From NCBI GenBank assembly GCA_002070375.1, contig MWDD01000001.1:17425-81424 (forward strand): DNA of 64,000 nt, given 5' to 3'. Numbering within the stretch: the stretch's first letter is position 1; each line of letters starts with the position of its first letter. Shown here in pieces: positions 24,396 through 39,554 of the stretch. The notes beneath the pieces are model-generated. The model saw nothing but the letters and a program-made list of their open reading frames with translations. It was not told where the DNA came from and did no database searches. Origin of the DNA: a bacterium ADurb.Bin157. GTDB taxonomy: Bacteria > Muiribacteriota > Ozemobacteria > Ozemobacterales > Ozemobacteraceae. The translations under genes and the position numbers were made by a program.

Positions 24396-25472
24396 ATGCA
24401 GGTAAACAAATATTTCACAAACATATTTATCATTTTAACATTATTCCTGTCATTTAACACTTATAACACTTGTTATGCACAGGCTTCAGTCAGAATTAAA
24501 GATATTTCGGCCCTAAGCGGCAACCGAGAATATCAGATTATAGGCTATGGACTTGTTACCGGGTTAAACGGAACCGGAGACAAGAGCGAAATGAGCCTCG
24601 AAATGATAAAAGGCATGTTTCGTAATTTAGGGATGGAATTATCTGATTCTCAAGTTGCATCAAAAAACTCCGCAGCCGTAATAGTGACTTCAATGTTGCC
24701 GGGCTATGGAAGGCCCGGCGAATTTATAGACGTAACAATAAGTTCTATCGGCGACGCTAAAAGCTTACAAGGCGGCGTCTTATTGCCAACCATGCTTAAA
24801 GCTAACGACGGAAACATTTATGCGGTCGCACAAGGTGCGGTATCTGTAGGTGGATTTGAAAGCGGCTCAAGCGGCTCTGCCAAAGGGGTCCAAAAAAATC
24901 ATTTAACAGTAGGCTACATTTCGAAAGGAGCGACTGTTGAAAGAGGAGTTGACGACAAGTTTGCAAAATCAGGTAAATTCAGTATTTTGCTTCAAGAGAA
25001 AGATTTAATTCTTTCCAGAAAAGTTAAAGAGGCTATTGATCAACGCTACGGAATGGGCTGGGCCGCTATAACCAACCCGGGCCAAATAGAAGTCACAATT
25101 CCTAGGGGGTTATCTGACGACCCGGTTAGTTTTGCCGCAAACATCGAAAACCTTACACTAAAAATTGAAGAACCAAACAGAGTTGTAATTAATGAGCGTA
25201 CCGGAACTGTAATAGTTGGAAACAATGTTAGAATAAGTAAGACAGCGATATCACATAACGGGATAAAAATTGCGGTCGGAGATGATAACAAACAAAACGG
25301 AGACAAAAAGAATGCCGTCCAAGGCACTTTGATTGGAGTTGAAGCCGAAACGACTGTTGACGATCTGGTTACAGCTCTAAATGCTGTCGGAGCGACCCCT
25401 AAGGACTTAATTGCTATTTTTCAGGCTCTGAACGCCGCAGGAGCTCTGCACGGGGAACTGAAGCTCATGTAA
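24396..25472 (+). CDS. flgI: flagellar P-ring protein FlgI
   Basis: 358 aa. Signal peptide then RIKDISALSGNREYQIIGYGLVTGLNGTGD, a canonical FlgI N-terminus. Confidence 0.9.
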   Translation: MQVNKYFTNIFIILTLFLSFNTYNTCYAQASVRIKDISALSGNREYQIIGYGLVTGLNGTGDKSEMSLEMIKGMFRNLGMELSDSQVASKNSAAVIVTSMLPGYGRPGEFIDVTISSIGDAKSLQGGVLLPTMLKANDGNIYAVAQGAVSVGGFESGSSGSAKGVQKNHLTVGYISKGATVERGVDDKFAKSGKFSILLQEKDLILSRKVKEAIDQRYGMGWAAITNPGQIEVTIPRGLSDDPVSFAANIENLTLKIEEPNRVVINERTGTVIVGNNVRISKTAISHNGIKIAVGDDNKQNGDKKNAVQGTLIGVEAETTVDDLVTALNAVGATPKDLIAIFQALNAAGALHGELKLM

Positions 25473-26904: not shown

Positions 26905-27933
26905 TTGTTTGGCGTGAAGACATTTAAATACTTTCTGATTCTTTTATTTGCAGCTTATATCGGCTTATTGAGTTTTACTTTAAGCGCATATTTTTGGATA
27001 AAAGAAATGTCTGAACCGGTTAATTCGGGACAAAAGCATGAAGTCTTGATTGAATCGGGAGCAAACACAAGAAAAATAGCTTCGCTTCTTAAAAATAAAA
27101 ATACAATCAAAAGCGCCTTGCTCTTTAGAATTTACATTAAATTTTTATCAGTGGACAACCGGCTCAGGCCGGGATTATATGCATTCAGCGGCAAAGAAAC
27201 CATTAACGAAGTTATACAGCTTCTCTTGCGCGGCAACGAAAAAACTATCTCTGTAACTGTTCCGGAAGGCGTAACCAATAAAAGAATAGCCTCAATAATG
27301 CATGATTCCGAAATTTGCAGCATCAATGATTTTATTGAAGCAACAATGAACCCATCAATAACCGGTCGAGTTTTCTCGAGCTGGGAATACATTCCCGAAA
27401 TGGAAGGCCTTCTTTTTCCTGACACCTATTATTTTCGAAAAAACACTCCGGCTGAAGTAGTTGTTGAACGCATGCTACGCATGACTAAGCACCAAATCGA
27501 CAAAATTTTTACCAAACCTCTTCCCGGGGGCTTAAGTCAATATGAGGGATGCATTCTCGCTTCAATAATAGAAGAAGAGGCCGCCCTAGACAAAGAACGC
27601 GATTTGATAGCTTCGGTATTCTATAACAGATTAGCTAAAAATCAAAAGCTTGAGTCTTGCGCAACTGTACTATATGCGTTAGGTGGTCACAAAAGCCGAA
27701 TCCTTTACGAAGATTTAAAAGTTAAATCTCCATATAATACATACCTAAATACAGGATTGCCTCCGACTCCCATATCAAATTTCGGAACTTCCGCACTACA
27801 GGCCGTAGCAAATCCTGCCAAAACAGACTACTTATATTTTGTTTCTGATAATGCGCGAGGGCACCTTTTTTCTAAAACTATAAATGAGCACAATAAAAAT
27901 CGTCATCTCTATTTTAAAAAAAGGAAAAACTGA
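26905..27933 (+). CDS. mltG: endolytic murein transglycosylase MltG (YceG family)
   Basis: 342 aa. N-terminal TM, LRPGLYAF, EEEAALDKERDLIASVFYNRL, SPYNTYLNTGLPPTPI. TTG start. Confidence 0.8.
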   Translation: MFGVKTFKYFLILLFAAYIGLLSFTLSAYFWIKEMSEPVNSGQKHEVLIESGANTRKIASLLKNKNTIKSALLFRIYIKFLSVDNRLRPGLYAFSGKETINEVIQLLLRGNEKTISVTVPEGVTNKRIASIMHDSEICSINDFIEATMNPSITGRVFSSWEYIPEMEGLLFPDTYYFRKNTPAEVVVERMLRMTKHQIDKIFTKPLPGGLSQYEGCILASIIEEEAALDKERDLIASVFYNRLAKNQKLESCATVLYALGGHKSRILYEDLKVKSPYNTYLNTGLPPTPISNFGTSALQAVANPAKTDYLYFVSDNARGHLFSKTINEHNKNRHLYFKKRKN

Positions 27934-27934
27934 C

Positions 27935-28756
27935 TTGAAAAAAAAAACAATTTTACTTTACACCTTATTTTTTCTTATTATTAACTACGAATTATGTGCA
28001 TCGAACAATAGAATAATAACCTTGGCTCCCTCTCAAACAGAATTAGTTTATGCAATGGGCTTGGGCGAACAAATTGTTGGCGTATCTGATTACAGTGATT
28101 ACCCTAAAGATGCCTTAAATAAAACGAAAATAGGAGACATTGAGTTAAAAGTTGAACTGATCCTTTCGTTATCACCGACAATAATTATTGATGTTAATTC
28201 AATGCGAAAAAGTTACGAGCCACTTTTTAGACGATTAAATTTAAACTACGTAAATTATAACATTTCCGAAATGGAAGACATAGCTTCAATGGCCCTTGAG
28301 ATTGGTAAATGCCTCAAAGAAGAAGAGAAGGCCAATAAATTCGCCTCGAAATGGTTAAGTGAAGTGCAAGCATTAAACTTGAAAAAACCGGAAGTTCCCT
28401 TTACTTTTTACGCAGAAATTTGGGGAACCCCCATGCAGGCTGCAGGCAATAAAAGCTTCATCAGCAAAATCATTGAACGATCCGGCGGAAAAAACATCTT
28501 TAACAGCAAAATTGAATATCCCGTAATTAACAAGGAGTCTGTAGTCAGCCTTAATCCAAACGTTGTTTTTCTTTTTTATCCTATAAAAGAAGAGGAAATT
28601 CTTAACGTAAAAAACAGACCTGCCTGGAAACACATCTCTGCAAGCAAAAACAATAACATCTATGCGCTTGATCAAGATCTTTTTGTAAGACCCGGCCCAA
28701 GAAACTTAGACGGTTTAAAAATAATCAATAAAATATTAAATAAGGCTATTAAATGA
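27935..28756 (+). CDS. ABC-transporter periplasmic binding protein, BtuF/FhuD-like (cobalamin or siderophore binding)
   Basis: IITLAPSQTELVYAMGLGEQIVGVSDYSDYP is the cluster-A-II BtuF motif. Likely TTG start at 27935 directly after the mltG stop with an AGGA ribosome-binding site. The ORF track's 27884 start would overlap mltG by 50 nt. Confidence 0.65.
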   Translation: MKKKTILLYTLFFLIINYELCASNNRIITLAPSQTELVYAMGLGEQIVGVSDYSDYPKDALNKTKIGDIELKVELILSLSPTIIIDVNSMRKSYEPLFRRLNLNYVNYNISEMEDIASMALEIGKCLKEEEKANKFASKWLSEVQALNLKKPEVPFTFYAEIWGTPMQAAGNKSFISKIIERSGGKNIFNSKIEYPVINKESVVSLNPNVVFLFYPIKEEEILNVKNRPAWKHISASKNNNIYALDQDLFVRPGPRNLDGLKIINKILNKAIK

Positions 28757-29943
28757 CCAAAACAATGCTACTCATCTTCTGTTTAATATCTTCTCTTGCA
28801 ACCGCTCAGCATAGCGCGGACAAGATGTGGGTCAAACTTGAAACAGCTTCTCAAACGGCTAACTTTTATATAAACATTCCGGAAAACGGCTGTGTCTCAC
28901 TTTCAACCATTTCACAGGGCAAAAAAAGCAATGATATAATTTGGGGCCCAAGACTAATGAATAAAGGGCTTTTCAAACTGCCGATCCCTGCTTCGGCAAT
29001 TATTGGGAAAAAAGGAATTGTCGAATTATTCACCGTAGAACTTACTGCAGCAAAAGAAACAGGTTCAAGAGGGAATGGAGAGCGACAGTTCAACTCACCT
29101 ATGGGCATTGACTATGACCGCACAAGAAATGAGTTGCTGGTTGCCGACACCGGTAACGACAGGATTATCAGACTCACACAAGATGGCAGATACCTGGGAA
29201 AACACGGGGGATTCGGAGTCTCTTTCGGAGACAAAAGCGAAGAGAGGGAAGATAGTCTTGATACCCCGTATGACGTTGCAACAGGGGGGTTTTCAAACTT
29301 TTACGTTTCTGATCAAAACAACAAGCGCATATGTGTTTTTGATTCTTACCGGACATACAAAGGAAAATTTTACCCTACAGACGCTCAAAGGCGGAATTCT
29401 CTTAACCGTCCGAAAGGTATTAAAGTCGACTACGAAAATAATATTTGGATAGTTGACGGTAGGTCAGACAAGATTATCAAAATTGCTCCAAATGGCGATA
29501 AACTACTTGAGCTTGGGGGATTCGGAAGAGGAAAACAACAACTTCGTTCTCCGAATCAGATTGATGTTGGTCCCAGCGGTGAAATTTTTGTAGCCGACAC
29601 AGGAAAATCTCGTATAGTCGTTTTTGACAGATTTGGTTCATTTTTAAGAGAAATAACAAATATTTTTAAACAACCAACAGCCGTAGCAATAGACCCGGAC
29701 GGCTTATTGGTAGTCTGTGATGCAAGCAAAAAGGATATTTCGCTTATAACTCCTCTTGGGGTTTTATTATCGAACTTAAGCACCGACTCAACCGGCAGTA
29801 AGTTAAAAACTCCGGCAGATTTGGCCTGCAATAACGATTATGTCTTTTGTGTCGATTCGGGCAATCACCGTCTTTTACATATTAAACGCAAAAAACTTAC
29901 AACAATCGTATCTTGGCAATGTGCAGACTCTGTGATAGAATAA
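28753..29943 (+). CDS. NHL-repeat secreted protein
   Basis: 396 aa. Signal peptide, six NHL blades (e.g. LVADTGNDRIIRL, FVADTGKSRIVVF). ATGA overlap with the preceding gene. Confidence 0.7.
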   Translation: MTKTMLLIFCLISSLATAQHSADKMWVKLETASQTANFYINIPENGCVSLSTISQGKKSNDIIWGPRLMNKGLFKLPIPASAIIGKKGIVELFTVELTAAKETGSRGNGERQFNSPMGIDYDRTRNELLVADTGNDRIIRLTQDGRYLGKHGGFGVSFGDKSEEREDSLDTPYDVATGGFSNFYVSDQNNKRICVFDSYRTYKGKFYPTDAQRRNSLNRPKGIKVDYENNIWIVDGRSDKIIKIAPNGDKLLELGGFGRGKQQLRSPNQIDVGPSGEIFVADTGKSRIVVFDRFGSFLREITNIFKQPTAVAIDPDGLLVVCDASKKDISLITPLGVLLSNLSTDSTGSKLKTPADLACNNDYVFCVDSGNHRLLHIKRKKLTTIVSWQCADSVIE

Positions 29944-29990
29944 CAAAATATAATCGCGGTTTTCCCGTGAAGTAACAGGAGCTAATACAA

Positions 29991-30968
29991 TTGAAATTTA
30001 GACGAATAAAACTACCGGTTTTTTTGCTTATAGCAATATGTTTATTATCTTTTCAAACCGGTTGCCGTAAAAAAAGAGCAGAAAGACCTAAAAAACCTGC
30101 AGCAAGATTATCGGAATCAACAAAAAACATAAAAATCGAAGATTTGTTGCCTAAAAATAATGTTGTAACAGGAAAACTAAAACGTGAAATTCCTGAAAAG
30201 GTAATGAATGAGTATATGTACGGCACTTTGGCAGGCCAATATGGAAAAGTTGACACAGCTGAAGAATATCTTCTCAAAACCATAAAAATGGAACCCTTGT
30301 TCGTTGACGCTCACCATAATTTGGGCCTGGCGTATTACAAACAAGGCCGTATTGACGAAGCGGTTAAATGTTGGCGAAAAACCCTAGAATTAGCCCCAAA
30401 TTATGCTGAAGCCTATTATAATCTGTCTATTTTTATGATGGCGCTGGGCAGAACCGATGATGCAATTAAATTGTTGGATGTATGCACGCAATATGAACCG
30501 TTTCACTTAAAGGCAAGATACGCCCTTGGCACGATAGCTAAGAAGAGCGGCCAAAACAAAGAAGCCATCAAGCATTTCAGAGCATACCAAAACAAAGATA
30601 AAGGTGATCCCAGGGTTTTGATAGCGCTTGGCGAACTATATTTACTTGAGGGACAAGAAGACGCTTCTTTAAAAGAGTTTGAATCTGCCGCAAGAATCGA
30701 CGAAAAAAACGGAAAAGTTCAATACCAGCTTGGAGTGGCATACCACAAGCGCGGATTGCTAGATCATGCTATTATTAATTACAAACGAGCCAGCGAACTA
30801 TTGCCCAACAATGTCGACCCATACATTAATCTTGGCGATATTTACGCAAGCAGAGGTGAATATGCATCAGCACTCGCATCATATAACACCGCTTTATCAA
30901 TCGACCCGACAAATGCATATGCATCCCGAAGGGCAAAGCAAGCTGAAAATCGTTTATTGGAACAGTAA
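29991..30968 (+). CDS. TPR-repeat lipoprotein
   Basis: 325 aa. Lipobox FQTGC. Multiple TPR units (AYYNLSIFMMALGRTDDAIKL, ...). TTG start with AGGAG ribosome-binding site. Confidence 0.7.
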   Translation: MKFRRIKLPVFLLIAICLLSFQTGCRKKRAERPKKPAARLSESTKNIKIEDLLPKNNVVTGKLKREIPEKVMNEYMYGTLAGQYGKVDTAEEYLLKTIKMEPLFVDAHHNLGLAYYKQGRIDEAVKCWRKTLELAPNYAEAYYNLSIFMMALGRTDDAIKLLDVCTQYEPFHLKARYALGTIAKKSGQNKEAIKHFRAYQNKDKGDPRVLIALGELYLLEGQEDASLKEFESAARIDEKNGKVQYQLGVAYHKRGLLDHAIINYKRASELLPNNVDPYINLGDIYASRGEYASALASYNTALSIDPTNAYASRRAKQAENRLLEQ

Positions 30969-30970
30969 TT

Positions 30971-31228
30971 TTGTCTATCGATTCAAACAACACAGTAAAT
31001 TCATCTGAACTTAAAGCAATTGATAAAACTAAGCTTGAAATTTTGGCAAGCAGACTTGGCATAAGTTTTAATGAAGCAAAAAAATTGCAGGCCGACCTAA
31101 GAATCAACCTCGCAAAAACTCTGGGAATTACTGCATCTGCAGTCTTCCCTGACATAGAACCGGCAGGACGAGAACTTAATTTAGCTTTCGTCATAAATAA
31201 ACAGAATCTGCCACGCAAAAAACAATAA
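30971..31228 (+). CDS. small hypothetical protein (85 aa) preceding the radical-SAM gene
   Basis: TTG start 2 nt after the TPR stop. Its stop overlaps the radical-SAM ATG (TAATG). Helical, non-repetitive sequence. Confidence 0.4.
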   Translation: MSIDSNNTVNSSELKAIDKTKLEILASRLGISFNEAKKLQADLRINLAKTLGITASAVFPDIEPAGRELNLAFVINKQNLPRKKQ

Positions 31229-32934
31229 TGACAAATATAATTGACCACCTTTCACATTGGGAACTTCTAAACATTGAAAAACCGGCTCGCTATTTGGGTG
31301 GAGAAGCAAATCAAGCACAAAGCAAAACTGATCCTGCGCTGAAAGTAGCGTTGGTTTTTCCTGATCTTTATGAATTGGGAATGTCTAATCTAGCCATAAA
31401 AATATTCTATGAATCTCTAAATAATACAGAAAACATAATGGCTGAAAGAGTGTTTTCTCCATGGATCGATTTTGAAGCCTTGCTCAGAAAAAAGGATTTA
31501 CCGATTTATTCGCTTGAAACGGGAAGACCTTTATATGAATTTGATGTTATTTTCATTTCTTTTCCTTATGAAATGACCTTTACCAACGTATTAAACATAC
31601 TTGATCTTGGCAAAGTGGAATTATGTACAAAAAACAGAACAAACTGGCCAATAGTAATAGGCGGAGGTCCATCAGCCTCAAATCCCTTACCGATGGCAAA
31701 GTTTATGGACGGTATTTTTATCGGCGACGGTGAAGAGAGCATTTTAGAAATTTGCAATAAACTGATTGAATTCAAAAAACAGAATTTGTCGCTTAAAGAA
31801 GTCAGAATGGCTCTTGCGGAAATAGAAGGGCTTTGGGTGCCCGAGTTTCCAAGAAATGTTCGGCGAAGAATTTTTAAAGGATTTGCAAATTCAGCACCGC
31901 CTTTAAAGCCTGTCATACCTAATGTTCAAGCTATTCACAACCGTGCGCCCATCGAAATATTCAGGGGCTGTATTAACGGATGCAGATTTTGTAACGCGGG
32001 TTATTATTACAGACCCAAAAGAGAGCGTTCCAGCGAATCTCTTATTAAATATGCCCACCAACTCCTCGAAAACACCGGTGAGGAATCTCTTGGACTACTC
32101 TCTCTTTCAACCTCTGATTATTCTGAACTCTCATGCTTAATTGAAGGACTTGACAGGGATAAGCTGTATCCTGAGCAAACTGTTTCTATTCCGTCAATGA
32201 GAATGACTGATAACACTATTAAACTGCTTAATTCTTCTTCCAGAATAAGAAAGGGCGGCTTAACTTTCGCACCCGAGGCAGGAACGCAAAAATTAAGAAA
32301 TATAATCAATAAAAACATAACCGAAGAAGACATAATTCATGTAATGAAAACTACGGGCGGCTCTGAGTATAGAACGGTCAAGCTCTATCTGATGATGGGC
32401 TTACCCTTTGAAACAGACGAAGACATTAGCGGAATTGTTAATTTGGTTGAGAAATTAGATAATATTGGGCGGACCTGCAGCCCGAAAAAGCAAATAACCG
32501 TTAGTCTTTCCGGGTTTGTTCCGAAGGCGTTTACTCCGTTTCAGTGGTCCCGACAGAACACAATCGAAGAGCTTAAAAACAAGCGTTTTGCCGTGTGTAA
32601 AGGGCTTGAACGCAGGCGAGTTCAAATTTCATGGCGAGATGAATATTTATGCTTACTGGAAGCCGTCCTTTCAAGAGGAGACGAACAAGTCGGAGACTTA
32701 GTTTTGGCCGCTTTCAGAAACGGATGTAAGTTTGACGGCTGGCACGAGTGTTTTTCTAAATCAGGTTGGGAAAAAGCTTTTGAAGACACGCAAATCCAAA
32801 CAAGTAAATATACATCTGAGCTTTCTATTAATAGCCCCCTACCCTGGGATTTCATTGACTTCAGAACTCCCAAAGCATTTTACCGGGAAGAATATCTAAA
32901 AGCAGCTCAAATAGCCGGAGTAACACCCGAATGA
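31228..32934 (+). CDS. B12-binding-domain radical SAM protein (TIGR03960-like, uncharacterised)
   Basis: 568 aa. N-terminal cobalamin-binding-like domain, CINGCRFCNAGYYY CxxxCxxC radical-SAM motif. Conserved neighbour of DUF2344 and RNase G. Confidence 0.75.
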   Translation: MTNIIDHLSHWELLNIEKPARYLGGEANQAQSKTDPALKVALVFPDLYELGMSNLAIKIFYESLNNTENIMAERVFSPWIDFEALLRKKDLPIYSLETGRPLYEFDVIFISFPYEMTFTNVLNILDLGKVELCTKNRTNWPIVIGGGPSASNPLPMAKFMDGIFIGDGEESILEICNKLIEFKKQNLSLKEVRMALAEIEGLWVPEFPRNVRRRIFKGFANSAPPLKPVIPNVQAIHNRAPIEIFRGCINGCRFCNAGYYYRPKRERSSESLIKYAHQLLENTGEESLGLLSLSTSDYSELSCLIEGLDRDKLYPEQTVSIPSMRMTDNTIKLLNSSSRIRKGGLTFAPEAGTQKLRNIINKNITEEDIIHVMKTTGGSEYRTVKLYLMMGLPFETDEDISGIVNLVEKLDNIGRTCSPKKQITVSLSGFVPKAFTPFQWSRQNTIEELKNKRFAVCKGLERRRVQISWRDEYLCLLEAVLSRGDEQVGDLVLAAFRNGCKFDGWHECFSKSGWEKAFEDTQIQTSKYTSELSINSPLPWDFIDFRTPKAFYREEYLKAAQIAGVTPE

Positions 32935-33587
32935 CAACCGAAAACATCGAAATTAAAGTAAAAATTGAATATACAAAAACCTCACAGTCAAGATATGTGT
33001 CTCACTTGGACAACATCGATGTAATTACTAAAGCCTTAAGACGCCTTCAGTTGCCTTATGCCGTAAGCCAAGGCTGTCATATCCGCCCCAAACTTTCTTT
33101 TGCACCGCCTTTACCTCTTGGGCATGCCAGTTATTGTGAATATTTGATAATAACGCTAGAGAAAGAAATCGAACCTGAAAAGCTAAAGACAGATCTAACC
33201 GATCAATTACCCGAAGGAATGACAGTTACTAATGTTATTCAACCCTGGATAGAAAAGAAAAGCAAAAACATTGGAGAAAGACTTGAATACTTGCTTCACT
33301 TCAGAGATCTAGCAACAGCACAAATTGCCAAGGAATATTTAAGCGATCCCGAATCATCATTTGAAGGGCATCATAAAGGGAAGACAAAAAAATATAAATT
33401 AGGCAAAGCCGTAAGTAAAATATCGCTGTCCGCATCAGAGGGAAAAAACCTTCTGGCAGTAGAATTTGAGCAGGGCATTGAGGGTATACCTTCTGTATCT
33501 AAGATTATTACTGCGCTTGCAGAAGCATTAGATAAAGACAAAGACAGCTTGTATTTAATTGAGCGCATATCGCTTACAGAACTTTAA
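32931..33587 (+). CDS. radical-SAM-linked protein (DUF2344/TIGR03936-like)
   Basis: 218 aa. 4-nt overlap with the radical-SAM gene. Family assigned from gene context and size. Confidence 0.5.
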   Translation: MTTENIEIKVKIEYTKTSQSRYVSHLDNIDVITKALRRLQLPYAVSQGCHIRPKLSFAPPLPLGHASYCEYLIITLEKEIEPEKLKTDLTDQLPEGMTVTNVIQPWIEKKSKNIGERLEYLLHFRDLATAQIAKEYLSDPESSFEGHHKGKTKKYKLGKAVSKISLSASEGKNLLAVEFEQGIEGIPSVSKIITALAEALDKDKDSLYLIERISLTEL

Positions 33588-33602
33588 AAAATAGGAAAAC
33601 AG

Positions 33603-35183
33603 ATGAGCCGAAAAATTTTATTAAACGTTGGACCTTATGAATCACGTGCAGCCATTATAGAGGATGGAAAACTTTGTGAATTGATGTATGAAATTGAAGA
33701 CGACGAGAAAATCGTGGGTTGTATATATAAAGGGCGTGTTGCAAACGTTGTAAGCGGAACCCAAAGTGCTTTCGTTGACATTGGCATACACAAAGATGCC
33801 TATTTAACTTTAACCGGCGTAGAAAACGATTTTGACATGGATTTGCAAGATATCTTCAAAAGTCCGATACAAGATTTGCTAAAAGTTGGGCAAGATGTGA
33901 TTCTTCAGATTTTAAAAGAACCCACACCGACTAAAGGGCCCAGATCTACGATGACCATATCGCTTCCCGGCAAATATTTGGTTTATATGCCGAAACTAGA
34001 CCACATCGGAGTATCTAAGAAAATATTTCAAGATAAAGAACGAGAAAGACTTAGGGGCATCGGACGCCGTATTTTGCCCAAAGGTAGCGGATTAGTTTTC
34101 AGAACAGCGGCCGAAGGTTTAGAAGAGAATATATTAAAGCGAGATTTAGATCTTCTGTTGAAAATGTGGAAAAGAGTTGAGGAAAAAATAGCTTCTTCAC
34201 CCCCAAAAACAATGTTACACCGCGACATTCCCTTGCCGATGAAAGTTGCAAGAGACTTTTTCACCGATGATGTCGAAGAAATGATCATAGACTCAGAAGA
34301 AGCTTATAAAAGCATTGTCGAGGACTGTGAATTCTTAACTCCGATGCAAAGAGCTTCGCTAGAACTTTATAAAGATAAAACACCATTGTTTGAAAAATAT
34401 GGTATCGAAAAAGAAATTGAAAAGGCTTTTTCAAGAAAAATTTGGCTTGATTCCGGAAGTTATATATTTATAGATAAGACTGAAGCCATGTACTGCATTG
34501 ATGTTAACAGCGGACGTTTTTCCGGTGGAAACGGTCTAGAAGAAACTGTTTTCAAAGTAAATATGGAAGCAGCCAAAGAGATTGCCAAACAAATCCGGTT
34601 AAGAAATTTAGCCGGAATGATCATTATAGATTTTATTGATATGGAATCAAATTCCCACAGGAATCAAGTTTTAAGAGCACTTAAAGAAGGTTTTAAAGGA
34701 GACAAGAATAAACCACATATCCTTGACTTTTCCGAACTTGGCCTCATTCAGATGACCCGAAGACGCACTTCTTCAAGTCTTGACGAATTGCGAAAAACGC
34801 AATGTCCTTGTTGCAAAGGAACAGGCAAAACCTTGTCTGTAAGGACTATAGCCAACACCTTAAAAACTGATTTAATAAAAGAATCTGAAAGATATCAAAC
34901 GGCAGAAATTACGGTACAATTACACAAGTCAGTTCTTGATGTTTTTAAGGCTCACTCAAACAAAGAACTCAAGGACATTGAGTCTGTAATAAAACGCAAG
35001 CTGATCTTTAAACCCAAAGAAGATTTGGATATTGAATATTATAAAATTGAACCTTCTTTGAATACAGAACCGATTGATACTGATGTTACAGAAATGCCAA
35101 ATTCCGCTGTTCCCACTAATAGAACAAATAAAAAACGAAGATTCAAATACAAGAAAAACCGTAATTCAATCCCAGAGAGTTAA
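33603..35183 (+). CDS. rng: ribonuclease G/E family endoribonuclease
   Basis: 526 aa. S1 domain, DNase-I-like catalytic core (DVNSGRF), Zn-link CPCCKGTG, basic C-terminus. Confidence 0.85.
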   Translation: MSRKILLNVGPYESRAAIIEDGKLCELMYEIEDDEKIVGCIYKGRVANVVSGTQSAFVDIGIHKDAYLTLTGVENDFDMDLQDIFKSPIQDLLKVGQDVILQILKEPTPTKGPRSTMTISLPGKYLVYMPKLDHIGVSKKIFQDKERERLRGIGRRILPKGSGLVFRTAAEGLEENILKRDLDLLLKMWKRVEEKIASSPPKTMLHRDIPLPMKVARDFFTDDVEEMIIDSEEAYKSIVEDCEFLTPMQRASLELYKDKTPLFEKYGIEKEIEKAFSRKIWLDSGSYIFIDKTEAMYCIDVNSGRFSGGNGLEETVFKVNMEAAKEIAKQIRLRNLAGMIIIDFIDMESNSHRNQVLRALKEGFKGDKNKPHILDFSELGLIQMTRRRTSSSLDELRKTQCPCCKGTGKTLSVRTIANTLKTDLIKESERYQTAEITVQLHKSVLDVFKAHSNKELKDIESVIKRKLIFKPKEDLDIEYYKIEPSLNTEPIDTDVTEMPNSAVPTNRTNKKRRFKYKKNRNSIPES

Positions 35184-35186
35184 AAC

Positions 35187-35894
35187 ATGAAGCTTTTATT
35201 TCGTTCTTTACTGCTATGTTTCTTTATTTCTGCATCTTCCATCATTTACTGCGCAGAAATTAAATATTCATTTAAACCCGGAATCACCTACACATATAAA
35301 TACACATTTGAATCATCTTCATCTGTAACTTCATTGGGTAATGTGAAAACCAATGTGCAAAAGCCGATTTATAATACTTTTACGATTAAAACAATTGCGT
35401 TTCAAGATAACGCATTTGTTCTGGATATCGAACATAACAAATCAACCTACAGAAGGTATATTAAACCAAATGGGGAAATAAAGGGCGCTGTTTCAGAAAC
35501 CGGCACAGAGCTTCCCGTGTTTCTGTCTTTCCCTGACACAGACTGGAAAATCGGCGAATCACACCAAATAACCAAAAGCGTTAAGATCAAAAATACTGAT
35601 TTTACAACTGTTTGGAATATTTTATTGAGGTCTGTCAATAACGATACAGGATTAGCAGAAATTGCATTTACGGCAACCCTTCCCTTGCCTCAAGACCAAT
35701 TAAGAAGAAAAACTTTTTCCTTAAACGGAACAGTAATTTTTAATGTGTTTGAAGGTGTTGTATATCGTGCAGACTGGGTTTCAAAGTATAGTTTAGATTT
35801 TTACAATAAAGAAATTGCAGTCATTCGTAATATGTGGAAATTTGAAAATGAACTTCGTCATTCCCTAATAATGGAAAACCTGGAGGAATACTGA
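35187..35894 (+). CDS. secreted hypothetical protein
   Basis: 235 aa, signal peptide MKLLFRSLLLCFFISASSIIYCAE. Confidence 0.5.
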   Translation: MKLLFRSLLLCFFISASSIIYCAEIKYSFKPGITYTYKYTFESSSSVTSLGNVKTNVQKPIYNTFTIKTIAFQDNAFVLDIEHNKSTYRRYIKPNGEIKGAVSETGTELPVFLSFPDTDWKIGESHQITKSVKIKNTDFTTVWNILLRSVNNDTGLAEIAFTATLPLPQDQLRRKTFSLNGTVIFNVFEGVVYRADWVSKYSLDFYNKEIAVIRNMWKFENELRHSLIMENLEEY

Positions 35895-36697
35895 TGAAAA
35901 AGCACATGTTGGTCGTCATCTTCACTTTTTTTGCTTCAGTTTCCTATTCGCAAGTAATGTTTGATATCACCACTCCCTTTAAACTGTGGCTCTTAAATAA
36001 CGAAGCGCGAGTTTTTTCATCATTAAACCTAGACCAGAAGCTAATATGGGAAATGTCTCTTCCATTTTCTTTCATCCCTACCATAAGAACGGAAAACACA
36101 GGTGCCGAAGAAGAACTATGGAATACTCACCGCAAATATTACAGATTGTTAGACGATATACAAAGCATTTACACAATGACAAAACGCTTTGGGAATGGCA
36201 GATTATCTGTTTTAACAAAGCAGGCACGCCCTGAAATATGGTCAGTATCTATGTTTAATTTTTTTATGCCACTGATTCAAAACTCAACTTCTGCTCGCTA
36301 CAGGGAAAACTGGCATCTTACCCTGCTAAAGGCCTTAAGACTCGACGCGGAAAGAGATTACAACTTAAACCAAAGACTTCATAATTCCACATCAAAGCTT
36401 TCAAGCGAAGAATACAGACTACTGAAATCATATTTTTCAAATTTTTCGGCATTATATCCGGGAAACACAAAAATTAAACTGTTACAAGCATTTTTAGAGA
36501 GAAGTAATCGGAATTCGACCCCAATTGGGGCAGGTATACAAGACCTTTTAAAACCAACCCAAACAATTACTACAGACGATGTTGAAGACAACGCGCTTGC
36601 CGAACTTGAAAAAATAGCCGGAATGGGTGAATCAGAGGCAACGGGGACATTTGAAGACACGCCACAGCCCGAAGACGATATGTTCAATATCTGGTAA
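35894..36697 (+). CDS. secreted hypothetical protein
   Basis: 267 aa, signal peptide. 1-nt overlap with the previous gene. Confidence 0.5.
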   Translation: MKKHMLVVIFTFFASVSYSQVMFDITTPFKLWLLNNEARVFSSLNLDQKLIWEMSLPFSFIPTIRTENTGAEEELWNTHRKYYRLLDDIQSIYTMTKRFGNGRLSVLTKQARPEIWSVSMFNFFMPLIQNSTSARYRENWHLTLLKALRLDAERDYNLNQRLHNSTSKLSSEEYRLLKSYFSNFSALYPGNTKIKLLQAFLERSNRNSTPIGAGIQDLLKPTQTITTDDVEDNALAELEKIAGMGESEATGTFEDTPQPEDDMFNIW

Positions 36698-36712: not shown

Positions 36713-37732
36713 TTATCGGTTATAGTAGTCTTGTAATCTGGGTGAAGAATTTTTTCTCAGTTTTCTGAGAGCTTTTTCTTCAACCTGTCGAACTCTTTCG
36801 CGCGTTACTCCCATTATTCTGCCGATTTCTTCGAGAGATCTGGGAATACCGTCATCAAGACCAAATCTTAATTTGATGACTGTTTGTTCTTTTTCGGTCA
36901 AGGATAACAAAACTCTTGAAATCTGCTCGTGCAACAACGAGTCGATTACTGCTTCTTCAGGGCTCACAGCATCATCATTTGAAATATAATCTTCAAGAGA
37001 AGAATCTTCTTTGTTCCCAACAGAAACATCAAGCGAAACGGGTTCTTGAGTGAGTCTGACAACTTCTTCTATTCTTTCAAGCGGAAGATCCATTAAAGCA
37101 GAAAGCTCTTCAGAGGAAGGTTCTCTGCCATGCTCCTGCAAAAAGCCTCTGATATGCCTTTTAACCTTATTCACTATTTCCATGACATGAACAGGGATTC
37201 TGATAACGCGTGACTGTTCCGCTAAAGCTCTTGTTATTGCCTGTCTTATCCACCAGGTTGAGTAAGTTGAAAACCTATAGCCCATTGTGTAATCAAACTT
37301 TTCAATTGAACGCATTAATCCAAGATTTCCTTCTTGGATAAGGTCCAAAAAAAGCAAGCCTCTATTTGTGTATTTTTTGGCTATACTGACTACAAGTCTC
37401 AGATTTGCGGTAACCAAGGCATCTCTTGCTTCTTGGTCGCCTTCAAGAATTCTTTTTGCGAAAGCACATTCTTGGTCGTGAGAAACCAAATCAACTTTAG
37501 TAAGTTGCTGAAGATAAAGTTTAACAGTATCATCAAAAATAGACTCTTCCTTTTTCTTTTCTCTTTCATCTTGAAAGTCTATTACATCGTCATGATGCTC
37601 ATTATGATGTTCTTCAGTATCAGTTTTTGCAGGTTTAACAGATTTTGGCACAGATTTATTCAAATTTTCTTTGCCCTTAACTGCTTGTCCGTTCACAGCC
37701 TTAGCCATTTTCCTGCTCCTCTTCGCCGGCAA
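36713..37732 (-). CDS. rpoD: RNA polymerase sigma-70 family primary-like sigma factor
   Basis: Region 2 ([37 protein letters not shown]) and region 4 ([16 protein letters not shown]). Lys-rich N-terminus. Start may be the ATG at 37708, which has a GAGGAG ribosome-binding site and overlaps the accA stop as ATGGCTAA. Confidence 0.85.
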
Positions 37733-38678
37733 ACTTTCCTATTCGGCGAAACCTGTTGTAGCGTTCTTCAATTAAATTATCGGCACTTACGGCAATTAAC
37801 GTAGGCAAATATTTCAAAATAGTTTTTTTAATTTCCTCTGCCGCTTTTTTGTGATCTCTATGAGCTCCACCCAGCGGTTCATTCAGAATTTCATCAATTA
37901 TTCCGGCTTTCAAAAGATCTGTCGACTTAAACTTAAGTGCAGATGCGGCTTCTTTTGCTTTATTTGGATCATTCCACAATATTGCAGCACACCCTTCGGC
38001 TGATATTACCGAATAAATAGAAAATTCAAACATAAAAACTTTATCGCCGACTCCAAGTGCCAATGCACCCCCGCTTCCGCCTTCACCGGTTATGAAACAG
38101 ATAATCGGAACTCTTAAAGCAGACATTTCAGCTAAGTTTTTTGCAATTGCCTCGCTTTGTCCTCTTTCTTCAGCTCCGATTCCCGGGAATGCTCCGGGGG
38201 TGTCAATAAATGTAACAACCGGCATATTAAATTGTTCGGCAAAACGCATAAGTCTGAGAGCTTTTCTGTAGCCTTCGGGATGGGGCATACCAAAATTTCT
38301 GTAAATATTGGTTTGGGTGTCACATCCTTTTTGATGACCGATAATCATTACACTGCGCCCGTCAATTAGTCCGATTCCTCCGACTATTGCAGGATCGTCT
38401 CCGAATAATCTGTCACCATGCATTTCAACGAAATCATCACCGCAGATATGCTTAACGTATTCAAGTGTCGAAGGACGATCAATATGCCTTGCAAGCTTGG
38501 CGACCTGCCAAGATTCAAGATTGTTGTAAATCTCTTTTTTTAAAGGCTCAATTTTAGAGCTTAAAAGAGCGATTTCTTCAGTTAGATCGACATGGCCCGC
38601 ATCAGAAATTACTTTAAGGTCTTCGATTCTCTTTTCAATTTCGATGATCGGTTTTTCAAAATCAAGTTCTAATGCCAT
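37701..38678 (-). CDS. accA: acetyl-CoA carboxylase carboxyltransferase alpha subunit
   Basis: 325 aa. [11 protein letters not shown], GGSGGALA motifs. Confidence 0.9.
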
Positions 38679-38684
38679 TTAATA

Positions 38685-39554
38685 TTACCTGCCATTATTC
38701 AGAATGTGCAAAATTTTAGCGATCTGCTTTTTTAAAGTTCTTCTATGAACTATGCAATCAAGCATCCCGTGTTCTAACAAGAACTTTGATTTTTGAAAAC
38801 CCTCGGGAAGTTTTTGTCTGATTGTCTGTTCTATAACACGAGGCCCTGCAAAGCAAATTAAAGCTCCCGGCTCAGCAATGTTAAAATCACCCAAGCTTGC
38901 AAAGCTGGCCGAAACACCACCGGTAGTCGGATCTGTAAGAATAGATATGAAAGGCACTTTTGCTGCATTTAATTTTTTAACGGCAGCCGAAGTTTTCGCC
39001 ATTTGCATCAATGAGAAAATTCCTTCTTGCATTCTTGCTCCACCGCTGGTAGCAACAATTACAACCGGAGTTTTTTCAGAAGCCCCTCTTTCGAGGGCTT
39101 CTGCAAGCTTTTCTCCAACCACAGAGCCCATACTTCCGCCCATAAACTCAAAATTCATTACTCCTAAAATTGCTTTTATCCCGTCAATTTGGACATATCC
39201 GGTCATTGCCGCATCAAAAGCGTCTGTTTTTTCTATTGCTTCTGCAATTCGTTGCGGATATTCTTTTGAGTCAACAAATTTTAACGGATCAGCAGATTTC
39301 AATTCTTGATTGAATTCAACAAAAGAATTGTCGTCTGACAAAAGAGCTACTCTGTCCCAGACAGGCATTCTCATGTGATAGTCGCATTTTACACAAAGGA
39401 AAAGATTCCGAACTAAGTCTTTGGTAAGGATTGTTTCACCGCACCCCGGACATTTTTTCCATAAATCAGGAGTTTTTTGTGAAGGTGCTTCTTGCTTAGG
39501 CTGATCTTCCTGCGACTTAGCGGTCTTTGAACGTAACTTATCAAACCAACCCAT
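38685..39554 (-). CDS. accD: acetyl-CoA carboxylase carboxyltransferase beta subunit
   Basis: 289 aa. N-terminal Zn ribbon CPGCGE...CVKCDYH, carboxyltransferase fold. Confidence 0.9.
   Translation of the reverse strand: MGWFDKLRSKTAKSQEDQPKQEAPSQKTPDLWKKCPGCGETILTKDLVRNLFLCVKCDYHMRMPVWDRVALLSDDNSFVEFNQELKSADPLKFVDSKEYPQRIAEAIEKTDAFDAAMTGYVQIDGIKAILGVMNFEFMGGSMGSVVGEKLAEALERGASEKTPVVIVATSGGARMQEGIFSLMQMAKTSAAVKKLNAAKVPFISILTDPTTGGVSASFASLGDFNIAEPGALICFAGPRVIEQTIRQKLPEGFQKSKFLLEHGMLDCIVHRRTLKKQIAKILHILNNGR

What the first reader, a model, noticed from the sequence alone, without database searches (positions are those of the whole stretch)
30971..35183. Small ORF plus B12-radical-SAM / DUF2344 / RNase G conserved triad
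The TIGR03960-type radical SAM, its linked DUF2344 partner and the rng gene are tightly coupled (overlaps of 1 and 4 nt), as in many bacteria. The function of this radical-SAM pair is unknown, though the context suggests RNA modification or RNase G regulation. Here an additional 85-aa ORF is translationally coupled upstream and could be a substrate or partner.
Basis: partly seen in the sequence, partly recalled or inferred. Interest (0 to 1): 0.5.

Follow-up and report, generated by a model that had tools for sequence, protein, structure and literature searches.

The report
MinE-like small gene before radical-SAM/RNase operon
The 85-codon ORF is a real gene found across one uncultured phylum (Riflebacteria); it looks like a degenerate copy of the cell-division protein MinE, and it is translationally coupled to a widespread but uncharacterised radical-SAM / pseudouridine-synthase-fold / RNase E/G gene set.

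Summary
All four ORFs are at the stated coordinates. TIGR03960, TIGR03936/DUF2344 and Rne/Rng HMMs match above their curated cut-offs. The 1-nt and 4-nt overlaps are real, but they join small ORF/rSAM and rSAM/DUF2344; rng follows after a 15-nt spacer.

The small ORF (30971-31228, TTG start) is a real gene. dN/dS is 0.16 against an 89%-identical relative, versus about 1-1.9 in the other frames. It lies directly upstream of the rSAM in 13 of 13 Riflebacteria-type loci, within 4 nt in 12. The family has 39 clusters at 50% identity and no Pfam or NCBIfam hit.

It is probably not an rSAM substrate peptide. AF2 gives a folded helix-helix-hairpin, and its best solved-structure match is MinE. Profile-profile comparison with MinE gives P=6.7e-5 (0 of 300 shuffles reach it). 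In Firmicutes, minCDE lies upstream of the same rSAM-DUF2344-rng cluster. However, it lacks MinE's membrane-targeting N-terminus, gets no Pfam MinE hit, and has no minC/minD nearby.

Verdict: the triad is a known conserved neighbourhood. The small gene is a new, divergent MinE-like variant of unknown role, most likely a co-produced partner of the operon's enzymes.

The parts
29913..29941 (+). Best sigma-70-like promoter match (TTGGCA-17-TAGAAT with TG) just upstream of the TPR gene; possible operon start
   Evidence: Consensus match only; the number of sites in the region is no higher than in shuffles.
29991..30968 (+). TPR-repeat lipoprotein gene (signal peptide plus lipobox ...LSFQTGC). It is the conserved upstream neighbour, and its stop lies 2 nt before the small ORF start.
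   Evidence: It is syntenic in 11 of 12 related loci that reach it; it is absent in L085.
30971..31228 (+). Small gene, 85 codons, TTG start: a MinE-like protein of a Riflebacteria-restricted family
   Evidence: dN/dS 0.156; in-frame conservation; 78 clusters at 90% identity and 39 at 50%; no Pfam/NCBIfam hit.
31016..31057 (+). Helix 1 (residues 16-29, AIDKTKLEILASRL). hhalign aligns it to the MinD-contact segment of MinE, placing the family's invariant R28 on MinE's invariant R30.
31067..31195 (+). Helix 2 plus beta-hairpin (residues 33-75), the counterpart of the MinE topological-specificity domain. The hairpin and tail (EFxGRDLDLVFTINKQNTP in the family) are the most conserved part.
31226..31230 (+). 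TAATG stop/start overlap between the small gene and the rSAM. The rSAM has no Shine-Dalgarno-like purine run upstream (A-rich ...aaaaaacaata).
   Evidence: The same overlapping or near-abutting junction occurs in 12 of 13 related loci.
31228..32934 (+). TIGR03960-family radical SAM protein (Radical_SAM_N2 plus Radical_SAM core)
   Evidence: The nearest solved sequences are only distant: 9ccb_A E 1.8e-5 and RimO.
31969..31992 (+). CX3CX2C [4Fe-4S]/SAM motif (CINGCRFC, residues 248-255)
32931..33587 (+). TIGR03936/DUF2344 radical-SAM-associated protein with a pseudouridine-synthase-like fold
33603..35183 (+). Rne/Rng-family endoribonuclease (RNase_E_G plus thioredoxin-like domain), 15 nt after DUF2344
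35187..35894 (+). Conserved 235-aa protein with an N-terminal signal-peptide-like segment and no known family; downstream operon member
   Evidence: It is syntenic in Riflebacteria loci.
35894..36697 (+). Conserved 267-aa protein with an N-terminal signal-peptide-like segment and no known family; last gene on this strand
36754..36771 (+). Terminator-like hairpin plus T-run after the last gene
   Evidence: consensus match only.

Best explanation
The window comes from a Candidatus Riflebacteria-type genome. In it, 29991-36697 reads as one compact transcription unit: TPR lipoprotein, small protein, TIGR03960 radical SAM, DUF2344, Rne/Rng ribonuclease, and two exported proteins.

Shown by the tools: the 85-codon ORF is a genuine gene for a small cytoplasmic protein folded as helix-helix-beta-hairpin. 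It belongs to a family restricted to this phylum and always sits directly upstream of the rSAM gene, usually overlapping it.

Inferred, about 0.7: this protein is a remote, degenerate descendant of MinE, left over from an ancestral minCDE-(rodA)-rSAM-DUF2344-rng arrangement that survives in Firmicutes. It keeps the MinE contact-helix motif and the alpha/beta dimerisation-domain fold. It has lost the N-terminal amphipathic membrane anchor and the link to minCD, and it has gained a near-invariant C-terminal hairpin and tail.

Inferred, about 0.4: it no longer works as a classical division-site factor. Instead it is made in fixed proportion with the rSAM, by termination-reinitiation at the TAATG/ATGA junction. 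It would act as a small, probably dimeric, partner or adaptor of the operon's enzymes, not as their substrate.

Inferred for the enzymes: the rSAM supplies radical chemistry, and the DUF2344 subunit, which has a pseudouridine-synthase fold, holds an RNA substrate. The adjacent RNase E/G points to rRNA or other stable-RNA maturation as the process served.
For: Real gene:
- dN/dS is 0.156, with a 4/4/18 codon-position pattern.
- It is conserved in frame in 5 of 5 complete Riflebacteria loci from the genome collection.
- The family has 78 clusters at 90% identity and 39 at 50% identity in an exhaustive hmmsearch of 1.84 billion proteins.
- The context is identical in 13 of 13 loci, including members only 24-30% identical.

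MinE link, three independent lines:
2. Sequence. hhalign of the family against 13 MinE sequences gives P=4.6e-4. This improves to P=6.7e-5 (prob 64%, 58 columns) when divergent members are added. None of 300 column- or block-shuffled MinE alignments reaches the score (means 10.7 and 14.0, maxima 20.2 and 27.9, real 28.5). The register agrees with the predicted secondary structure and puts the invariant family Arg on the invariant MinE R30.
3. Gene order. minC-minD-minE lie upstream on the same strand in 18 of 52 non-Riflebacteria loci, and MinE is the immediate upstream gene in L017 and L059.

Neofunctionalisation:
- The N-termini have 2.1 bulky hydrophobic residues in positions 2-11 (MinE has 4.5) and 1.2 prolines in positions 1-16 (MinE has 0.17).
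- No MinC, MinD or MinE hit in the 64-kb window or in the flanks (up to 10 kb where the contig allows) of the related loci.
- The strongest conservation is in the C-terminal hairpin, not in the contact helix.
- The rSAM start has no SD and overlaps the small gene's stop.

RNA role of the pair: the DUF2344 model has a PUS fold, and Pfam places DUF2344 with the pseudouridine synthase domain (PMC7955657).

Precedent for a Min-RNase link: MinD binds RNase E and shapes the polar transcriptome (PMC10897333), and E. coli rng is the last gene of the mre operon (PMC4319933).
Against: - The Pfam MinE HMM does not hit any of the 77+10 members scanned.
- The hhalign probability is only 64%.
- Foldseek E-values are not significant (0.8).
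- A helix-helix-hairpin is a simple fold that could arise independently.
- The gene-order argument rests on Firmicutes, a distant phylum.
- Whether Riflebacteria encode MinD elsewhere could not be tested, so a classical MinE role is not excluded.
- No direct evidence of any physical interaction with the rSAM, DUF2344 or the RNase.
- The whole seven-gene block is conserved, so adjacency alone does not single out the rSAM as partner.
- The DUF2344 catalytic residues and the RNA target are untested.
Confidence: 0.4

Rival explanations
1. It is still a working MinE. The protein acts with a MinD (and MinC) encoded elsewhere in the genome to position the division site. Its place in front of the rSAM is only a historical leftover of the min-rSAM-rng neighbourhood.
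For: The contact-helix-like motif (E-K-V-R-L-A-I-L-x-D/N-R against MinE E-R-L-K-L-V-L-I-H-D-R) and the invariant Arg are retained across the family. This would be expected if MinD is still bound. The TSD-like fold is retained. The neighbourhood contains cell-envelope genes such as MltG and Amidase_3 and GerM in relatives.
Against: There is no amphipathic membrane-targeting N-terminus. There is no minC/minD within 30 kb in the window or in the flanks (up to 10 kb where the contig allows) of the relatives, whereas minE normally follows minD. Conservation is concentrated in the C-terminal hairpin and tail rather than the anti-MinCD segment. Pfam MinE does not hit.
Confidence: 0.2
2. It is a lineage-specific accessory subunit or regulator of the TIGR03960/DUF2344 enzyme (or of the RNase) that arose independently. 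Its resemblance to MinE is convergent.
For: It is directly upstream of the rSAM in 13 of 13 loci and within 4 nt in 12, including L085, where the TPR gene is absent and rSAM and DUF2344 are fused. The rSAM lacks its own SD. No curated HMM recognises the protein. The structural scores to MinE are modest.
Against: Three independent lines converge on MinE: the best structural hit, hhalign P=6.7e-5 with 0 of 300 shuffles reaching it, and minE lying at the equivalent position in Firmicutes. The hhalign score rises as family diversity is added, which is typical of true homology.
Confidence: 0.2
3. It is a ribosomally made substrate (RiPP-like precursor) that the radical SAM enzyme modifies.
For: It is a small ORF coupled to a radical SAM gene, and it has a near-invariant C-terminal segment (FTINKQNTP) that could be a core peptide.
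Against: It is predicted to be a compact folded protein (pLDDT above 90 over residues 20-70). No SPASM/twitch or RRE/PqqD domain is detected in the rSAM or its neighbours. The TIGR03960/TIGR03936 pair is widespread in Firmicutes, Deltaproteobacteria and Anaerolineae without this peptide. The NKQNTP tail is lost in divergent members that keep the same operon. The rSAM's partner has an RNA-enzyme fold.
Confidence: 0.05
4. The 258-nt stretch is not protein-coding but a leader or regulatory RNA (for example a cobalamin or SAM riboswitch) for the rSAM operon.
For: The start codon is TTG, there is no ATG in frame and the SD is weak.
Against: Rfam at E up to 5 finds nothing relevant in 29500-36000. 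The substitution pattern is that of a protein. There is amino-acid-level conservation at 24-47% identity without frame breaks.
Confidence: 0.02

Closest known systems
MinE, cell-division topological specificity factor (Pfam PF03776)
   Same: The length is similar (about 80-95 aa). The order of elements is the same: N-terminal basic segment, contact helix, long helix, beta-hairpin. It is the best structural match (6u6r, 3r9j, 1ev0). The hhalign register conserves E/K-R/L...D-R. MinE sits at the same position relative to the TIGR03960-DUF2344-rng cluster in several Firmicutes.
   Different: No Pfam MinE hit. No amphipathic membrane-targeting N-terminus. Not next to minD/minC. The conservation pattern is inverted, with the C-terminal hairpin and tail most conserved. 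It is translationally coupled to a radical SAM gene.
TIGR03960 radical SAM / TIGR03936 (DUF2344) pair, a conserved pair of unknown function that is often fused
   Same: Both HMMs match above their cut-offs. The genes are adjacent and overlap by 4 nt. A fused version occurs in a relative (L085). An Rne/Rng gene follows, as in many Firmicutes.
   Different: Only in this phylum is the pair preceded by the coupled small gene and embedded in a TPR-lipoprotein/exported-protein operon.
Pseudouridine synthases of the TruA/PUS10/PUS1 type
   Different: There is no detectable sequence similarity to TruA (hhalign P 0.41), and the catalytic Asp was not located. DUF2344 may be a non-catalytic RNA-holding module.
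E. coli mre operon (mreBCD-yhdE-rng) and the MinD-RNase E interaction
   Same: An RNase E/G-family gene is embedded among cell-shape and division genes, and there is a documented functional link between a Min protein and RNase E (PMC4319933, PMC10897333).
   Different: In E. coli the partner is MinD, which binds the RNase E membrane anchor. No rSAM/DUF2344 is present there, and no MinE-like gene lies in the operon.

Membership tests
TIGR03960 B12-binding radical SAM family | Full-length match to the TIGR03960 HMM above the curated cut-off | tested here: met
   576.7 bits vs 462.3, residues 13-567 on profile positions 4-586 of 605.
TIGR03960 B12-binding radical SAM family | CX3CX2C cluster motif in a Radical_SAM core | tested here: met
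   CINGCRFC at residues 248-255; PF04055 E 2.5e-14.
TIGR03960 B12-binding radical SAM family | Cobalamin binding by the N-terminal domain | not testable with these tools
   Only PF19864 Radical_SAM_N2 is reported for the N-terminus. Weak matches to the B12-rSAM families TIGR04013/04014 fall far below their cut-offs. 'B12' rests on the family name.
TIGR03936 / DUF2344 radical-SAM-associated protein | HMM match above cut-off, and a gene adjacent to or fused with TIGR03960 | tested here: met
   124.2 bits vs 71.9; PF10105; 4-nt overlap; adjacency in 72 of 75 loci.
Pseudouridine synthase superfamily (for DUF2344) | PUS core fold | tested here: met
Pseudouridine synthase superfamily (for DUF2344) | Catalytic aspartate in the conserved active-site loop | not tested
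   No residue-level structural alignment was available. hhalign against E. coli TruA finds no sequence alignment.
Ribonuclease G (NF008689 equivalog) | Score above the equivalog cut-off | tested here: not met
   427.1 bits vs cut-off 594. The Rne/Rng subfamily model TIGR00757 is met (446.7 vs 326).
MinE (PF03776) | Match to the Pfam MinE HMM | tested here: not met
   No MinE hit for the 8 family members scanned singly at E up to 10, nor among the 25 best-represented families (of 43) for the 77 members scanned at E up to 1. True MinE controls score 74-94 bits.
MinE (PF03776) | Profile-profile similarity covering the anti-MinCD segment and the TSD helix | tested here: inconclusive
   hhalign P=6.7e-5, prob 63.7%, 58 columns. 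None of 300 shuffles reaches the score.
MinE (PF03776) | Alpha/beta topological-specificity-domain fold | tested here: met
MinE (PF03776) | N-terminal amphipathic membrane-targeting sequence | tested here: not met
   2.1 vs 4.5 bulky hydrophobic residues in positions 2-11, and 1.2 vs 0.17 prolines in positions 1-16.
MinE (PF03776) | Encoded with minD (minDE or minCDE operon) | tested here: not met
   No MinC/MinD tblastn hit in the 64-kb window or in the Riflebacteria-type loci. Presence elsewhere in the genome is unknown.
MinE (PF03776) | Stimulates MinD ATPase; forms a dimer | not testable with these tools
   Needs biochemistry or multimer modelling.
RiPP precursor with radical SAM maturase | Maturase carries an RRE/PqqD and/or SPASM domain, and the precursor is an unstructured leader-core peptide | tested here: not met
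   Only Radical_SAM_N2 plus Radical_SAM are found. The small protein is predicted to be folded.

The most novel reading that the evidence does not exclude
A component of the Min division-site system has been captured by an RNA-processing operon. The MinE-derived protein would act as a dimeric adaptor. It would tie the uncharacterised TIGR03960/DUF2344 RNA-modifying enzyme and RNase E/G to a MinD/ParA-type positioning ATPase or to a cell pole. RNA maturation would then be spatially organised by a repurposed Min protein. This would be a hard-wired version of the MinD-RNase E interplay recently described in E. coli.
Probability: 0.15. Interest if true: 0.75.

Novelty: new variant of a known kind. 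Interest (0 to 1): 0.45.

Why it matters
The TIGR03960/DUF2344 pair is one of the most widespread radical SAM systems with no known function. Its steady association with RNase E/G, and in Firmicutes with mre/min/rodA, has not been explained.

This work shows that its partner has a pseudouridine-synthase fold. That narrows the substrate to RNA and gives a direct experiment: RNA-modification mapping in knock-outs of culturable carriers.

The small gene adds an unannotated, phylum-wide protein family. If the MinE ancestry holds, it would be, to my knowledge, an unusual case of a MinE-type protein surviving without a nearby minCD and without its membrane anchor. It would also link the Min system and RNase E/G at the level of operon structure.

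The practical limit is that the carriers are uncultured, so tests must be heterologous.

Tried and rejected
- Riboswitch or ncRNA in the TPR-rSAM spacer. Rfam at E up to 5 gave only sub-threshold noise: R2 element 16.9 bits, and IMES-1 30 bits vs 81 inside rng.
- 4-oxalocrotonate tautomerase / MIF beta-alpha-beta. Profile-vs-PDB E values are 0.03-0.1 over about 30 residues. No Pro1 and the wrong topology. Rejected.
- Weak Pfam hits (Homeodomain, HTH_10, RepA_N, DUF6257) are all far below cut-off and inconsistent among members.
- RiPP precursor: rejected (see rival explanations).
- Sequence-level link of DUF2344 to TruA: none. Profile search against PDB sequences gave only spurious protein A hits.
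- Literature. No paper in the library mentions TIGR03960, and DUF2344 appears only in a Pfam-clan clustering paper. No paper links radical SAM with RNase G.
- The AFDB50 Foldseek library was not available.
- P0003/L082 is a low-coverage contig (cov 0.49) whose genes are broken into frameshifted pieces. It was not used.
- I could not determine whether Riflebacteria encode MinD.

Full report
**1. What is there**

The + strand carries back-to-back ORFs:

| Coordinates | Product |
|---|---|
| 29991-30968 | TPR lipoprotein, 325 aa |
| 30971-31228 | small ORF, 85 aa, TTG start |
| 31228-32934 | rSAM, 568 aa |
| 32931-33587 | DUF2344, 218 aa |
| 33603-35183 | ribonuclease, 526 aa |
| 35187-35894 | protein with no family hit and a signal-peptide-like N-terminus |
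| 35894-36697 | protein with no family hit and a signal-peptide-like N-terminus |

- The junctions, in gene order, are +2, -1, -4, +15, +3 and -1 nt.
They join small ORF/rSAM and rSAM/DUF2344; rng is separated by 15 nt.
- HMMs confirm the identities above curated cut-offs: TIGR03960 576.7 vs 462.3 bits; TIGR03936 124.2 vs 71.9; PF10105; TIGR00757 (Rne/Rng) 446.7 vs 326.
- The RNase G equivalog model is not reached (427 vs 594).
- The rSAM has one CX3CX2C motif, at residues 248-255.
- The best promoter-like site lies just upstream of the TPR gene, and a terminator-like hairpin follows the last gene. Both are consensus-level evidence only.
- The closest genomes are Candidatus Riflebacteria/Rifleibacteriota MAGs, with 61-69% identity for the rSAM.

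**2. The triad is a widespread neighbourhood**

- Among 80 loci fetched with the rSAM, DUF2344 lies within 400 nt downstream in 72 of 75 loci that extend far enough.
- An Rne/Rng gene lies within 2 kb in 29 of 62.
- In a deep-branching relative the rSAM and DUF2344 are fused into one 877-aa product (L085).
- No paper in the library mentions TIGR03960. DUF2344 appears only in a Pfam-clan study that groups it with the pseudouridine synthase domain.

**3. DUF2344 has a pseudouridine-synthase fold**

- There is no sequence-level similarity to TruA, and no solved relative by sequence.
- I could not locate or exclude a catalytic Asp.
- The nearest solved sequence relatives of the rSAM are distant: 9ccb_A and RimO.
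- Inference: the pair is an RNA-directed radical SAM enzyme in which DUF2344 holds the RNA. The neighbouring RNase E/G suggests stable-RNA maturation.

**4. The small ORF is a real gene**

- Against L081 (89% aa identity) the 26 substitutions fall 4/4/18 by codon position. dN/dS is 0.156 in this frame, versus 1.9 and 0.95 in the other two. For comparison, the rSAM gives 0.05.
- tblastn finds the protein in frame, ending at the rSAM start, in L006, L001, L002, L003 and L004 at 28-47% identity. Usable ATG or GTG starts are visible 8-18 codons before the conserved core in L001-L004.
- A profile search found 78 clusters of 41-104 residues (most 60-100). All the named ones but one (labelled Erysipelotrichia by NCBI) are from Riflebacteria, nearly all annotated 'hypothetical protein' (one JGI entry carries a spurious 'glutamate/leucine dehydrogenase' name), and none has a Pfam domain.
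- An exhaustive hmmsearch of 1.84 billion representatives found only 39 clusters, so the family is small and confined to this phylum.
- In all 13 loci examined, including members only 24-30% identical, the gene lies directly upstream of the rSAM. The distance is -4, -1, +2 or +4 nt in 12 loci and +137 nt in one.
- The rSAM start has no purine-rich SD (aaaaaacaataATG), while rng, DUF2344 and the last gene do. This fits translation of the rSAM by reinitiation after the small ORF.
- Rfam finds no riboswitch or known RNA in the spacer.

**5. What the small protein is**

No curated HMM hits it. The AF2 model (pLDDT 81 overall, above 90 in the core) has a disordered N-terminus, helix 16-29, helix 33-51 and a hairpin 58-65/68-75.

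*Structure.*
- MinE 3r9j_D (60 residues aligned) and 1ev0_B appear further down the list.
- Foldseek ranks the same entry second by E-value but gives it by far the highest probability (0.85, TMt 0.75).
- These scores are low in absolute terms, as expected for a 44-residue domain.

*Sequence.*
- I tested the lead independently by sequence. hhalign of the family against 13 MinE sequences gives P=4.6e-4. Two of those sequences were recalled from memory and verified as MinE by Pfam; the other eleven were taken from the fetched loci.
- With the divergent members added, the result improves to P=6.7e-5, probability 64%, over 58 columns.
- None of 150 column-shuffled and 150 block-shuffled MinE alignments reaches the real score of 28.5 (means 10.7 and 14.0; maxima 20.2 and 27.9).
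- The register matches the predicted secondary structure. It aligns the family motif E-K-V-R-L-A-I-L-x-D/N-R with MinE E-R-L-K-L-V-L-I-H-D-R, and puts the family's invariant Arg on MinE's invariant R30.

*Gene order.*
- minC-minD-minE lie upstream on the same strand in 18 of 52 non-Riflebacteria loci.
- In L017 and L059, MinE is the gene immediately before the rSAM.

Taken together, I put the probability of MinE ancestry at about 0.7.

**6. How it differs from MinE**

- The N-terminus is basic and proline-rich, not amphipathic.
- Pfam MinE does not match.
- No MinC or MinD is detectable in the 64-kb window or in the flanks (up to 10 kb where the contig allows) of the related loci.
- The most conserved part of the family is the C-terminal hairpin and tail (EFxGRDLDLVFTINKQNTP), not the anti-MinCD segment.
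- The window's own copy departs from the family consensus at F64P, D70N and T74V.
- In divergent members the NKQNTP tail is replaced, while the hairpin core and the operon are kept.

**7. Mechanism**

*Shown:*
- The small ORF is a real gene, conserved across the phylum.
- It is coupled to the rSAM start.
- Its product is predicted to be folded.
- DUF2344 has a PUS fold.

*Inferred:*
- The small protein descends from MinE within an ancestral min-rSAM-DUF2344-rng cluster.
- After losing its membrane anchor and its minCD neighbours, it was kept because it acquired a role with the co-translated enzymes. That role would be as a small, probably dimeric, partner or adaptor, not as a substrate.

*Precedents for a Min-RNase connection:*
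- MinD binds the RNase E membrane anchor and shapes the polar transcriptome (PMC10897333).
- E. coli rng closes the mre operon (PMC4319933).

*Alternatives I cannot exclude:*
- It is still a plain MinE that works with a distant minD.
- It is an unrelated accessory subunit.

The substrate and RNA-leader readings are unlikely.

**8. Novelty and score**

The triad itself is a known, annotated neighbourhood of unknown function. The small gene is an undescribed family and, if the ancestry holds, an unusual MinE derivative. I rate the finding a new variant of a known kind, interest 0.45. The key open test is whether these genomes encode MinD.

Noticed in passing
window 27884-28756 (+): A BtuF-like (vitamin B12 / heme type) ABC substrate-binding protein gene lies three genes upstream of the 'B12-binding' radical SAM (100 bits, below the BtuF cut-off of 234). 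In the window it has no adjacent permease or ATPase, whereas relative L083 has Peripla_BP_2-FecCD-ABC_tran at the same place. A possible cofactor-supply link; not examined.
   Followed up: partly
window 26905-27933 (+); L083 1-4911; L084 1931-6860: The operon sits in a cell-envelope neighbourhood. MltG/YceG and NHL-repeat proteins are in the window. Amidase_3 and GerM ('Germane') lie further upstream in relatives. This echoes the mre/min/rodA context of the same rSAM cluster in Firmicutes.
   Followed up: partly
window 35187-35894 and 35894-36697 (+): Two proteins with signal-peptide-like N-termini and no Pfam/NCBIfam hit follow the RNase. They are syntenic in all Riflebacteria-type loci, at 22-48% identity. 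Function unknown.
   Followed up: partly
L085 5529-8162: In a deep-branching relative (GCA_964483805.1) the rSAM and DUF2344 are fused into one 877-aa ORF. The TPR gene is replaced by a HAMP/guanylate-cyclase gene, yet the MinE-like gene still overlaps the rSAM start by 4 nt.
   Followed up: yes
window 34087-34311 (+), inside rng: A sub-threshold Rfam match to the IMES-1 RNA motif (30 bits vs gathering 81, E 0.0019). It lies within coding sequence and is most likely chance.
   Followed up: no
loci L011, L016, L018, L020, L024 and others (Oscillospiraceae/Clostridia MAGs): In about half of the loci with enough downstream sequence, no Rne/Rng gene follows DUF2344 (29 of 62 have it). The rng link is therefore lineage-dependent, whereas the rSAM-DUF2344 link is nearly universal.
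   Followed up: partly
L082 (ENA ERZ2647912, coverage 0.49): A close relative's contig has the TPR, small, rSAM and DUF2344 genes broken into frameshifted pieces, while stretches are 98-100% identical to the window. This looks like a low-coverage assembly artefact rather than pseudogenes.
   Followed up: partly
window 36713-39554 (-): A convergent rpoD-like sigma-70 gene plus accA and accD directly abut the operon's end. The same arrangement is kept in L083-L085, so the whole region is a stable syntenic block in the phylum.
   Followed up: no
window 24396-25472 (+) and 18175-20760 (+): A flagellar P-ring gene (flgI) with no flagellar gene among its immediate neighbours, and a bifunctional AdhE (1436 bits), lie upstream. 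Both are unrelated to the finding.
   Followed up: no
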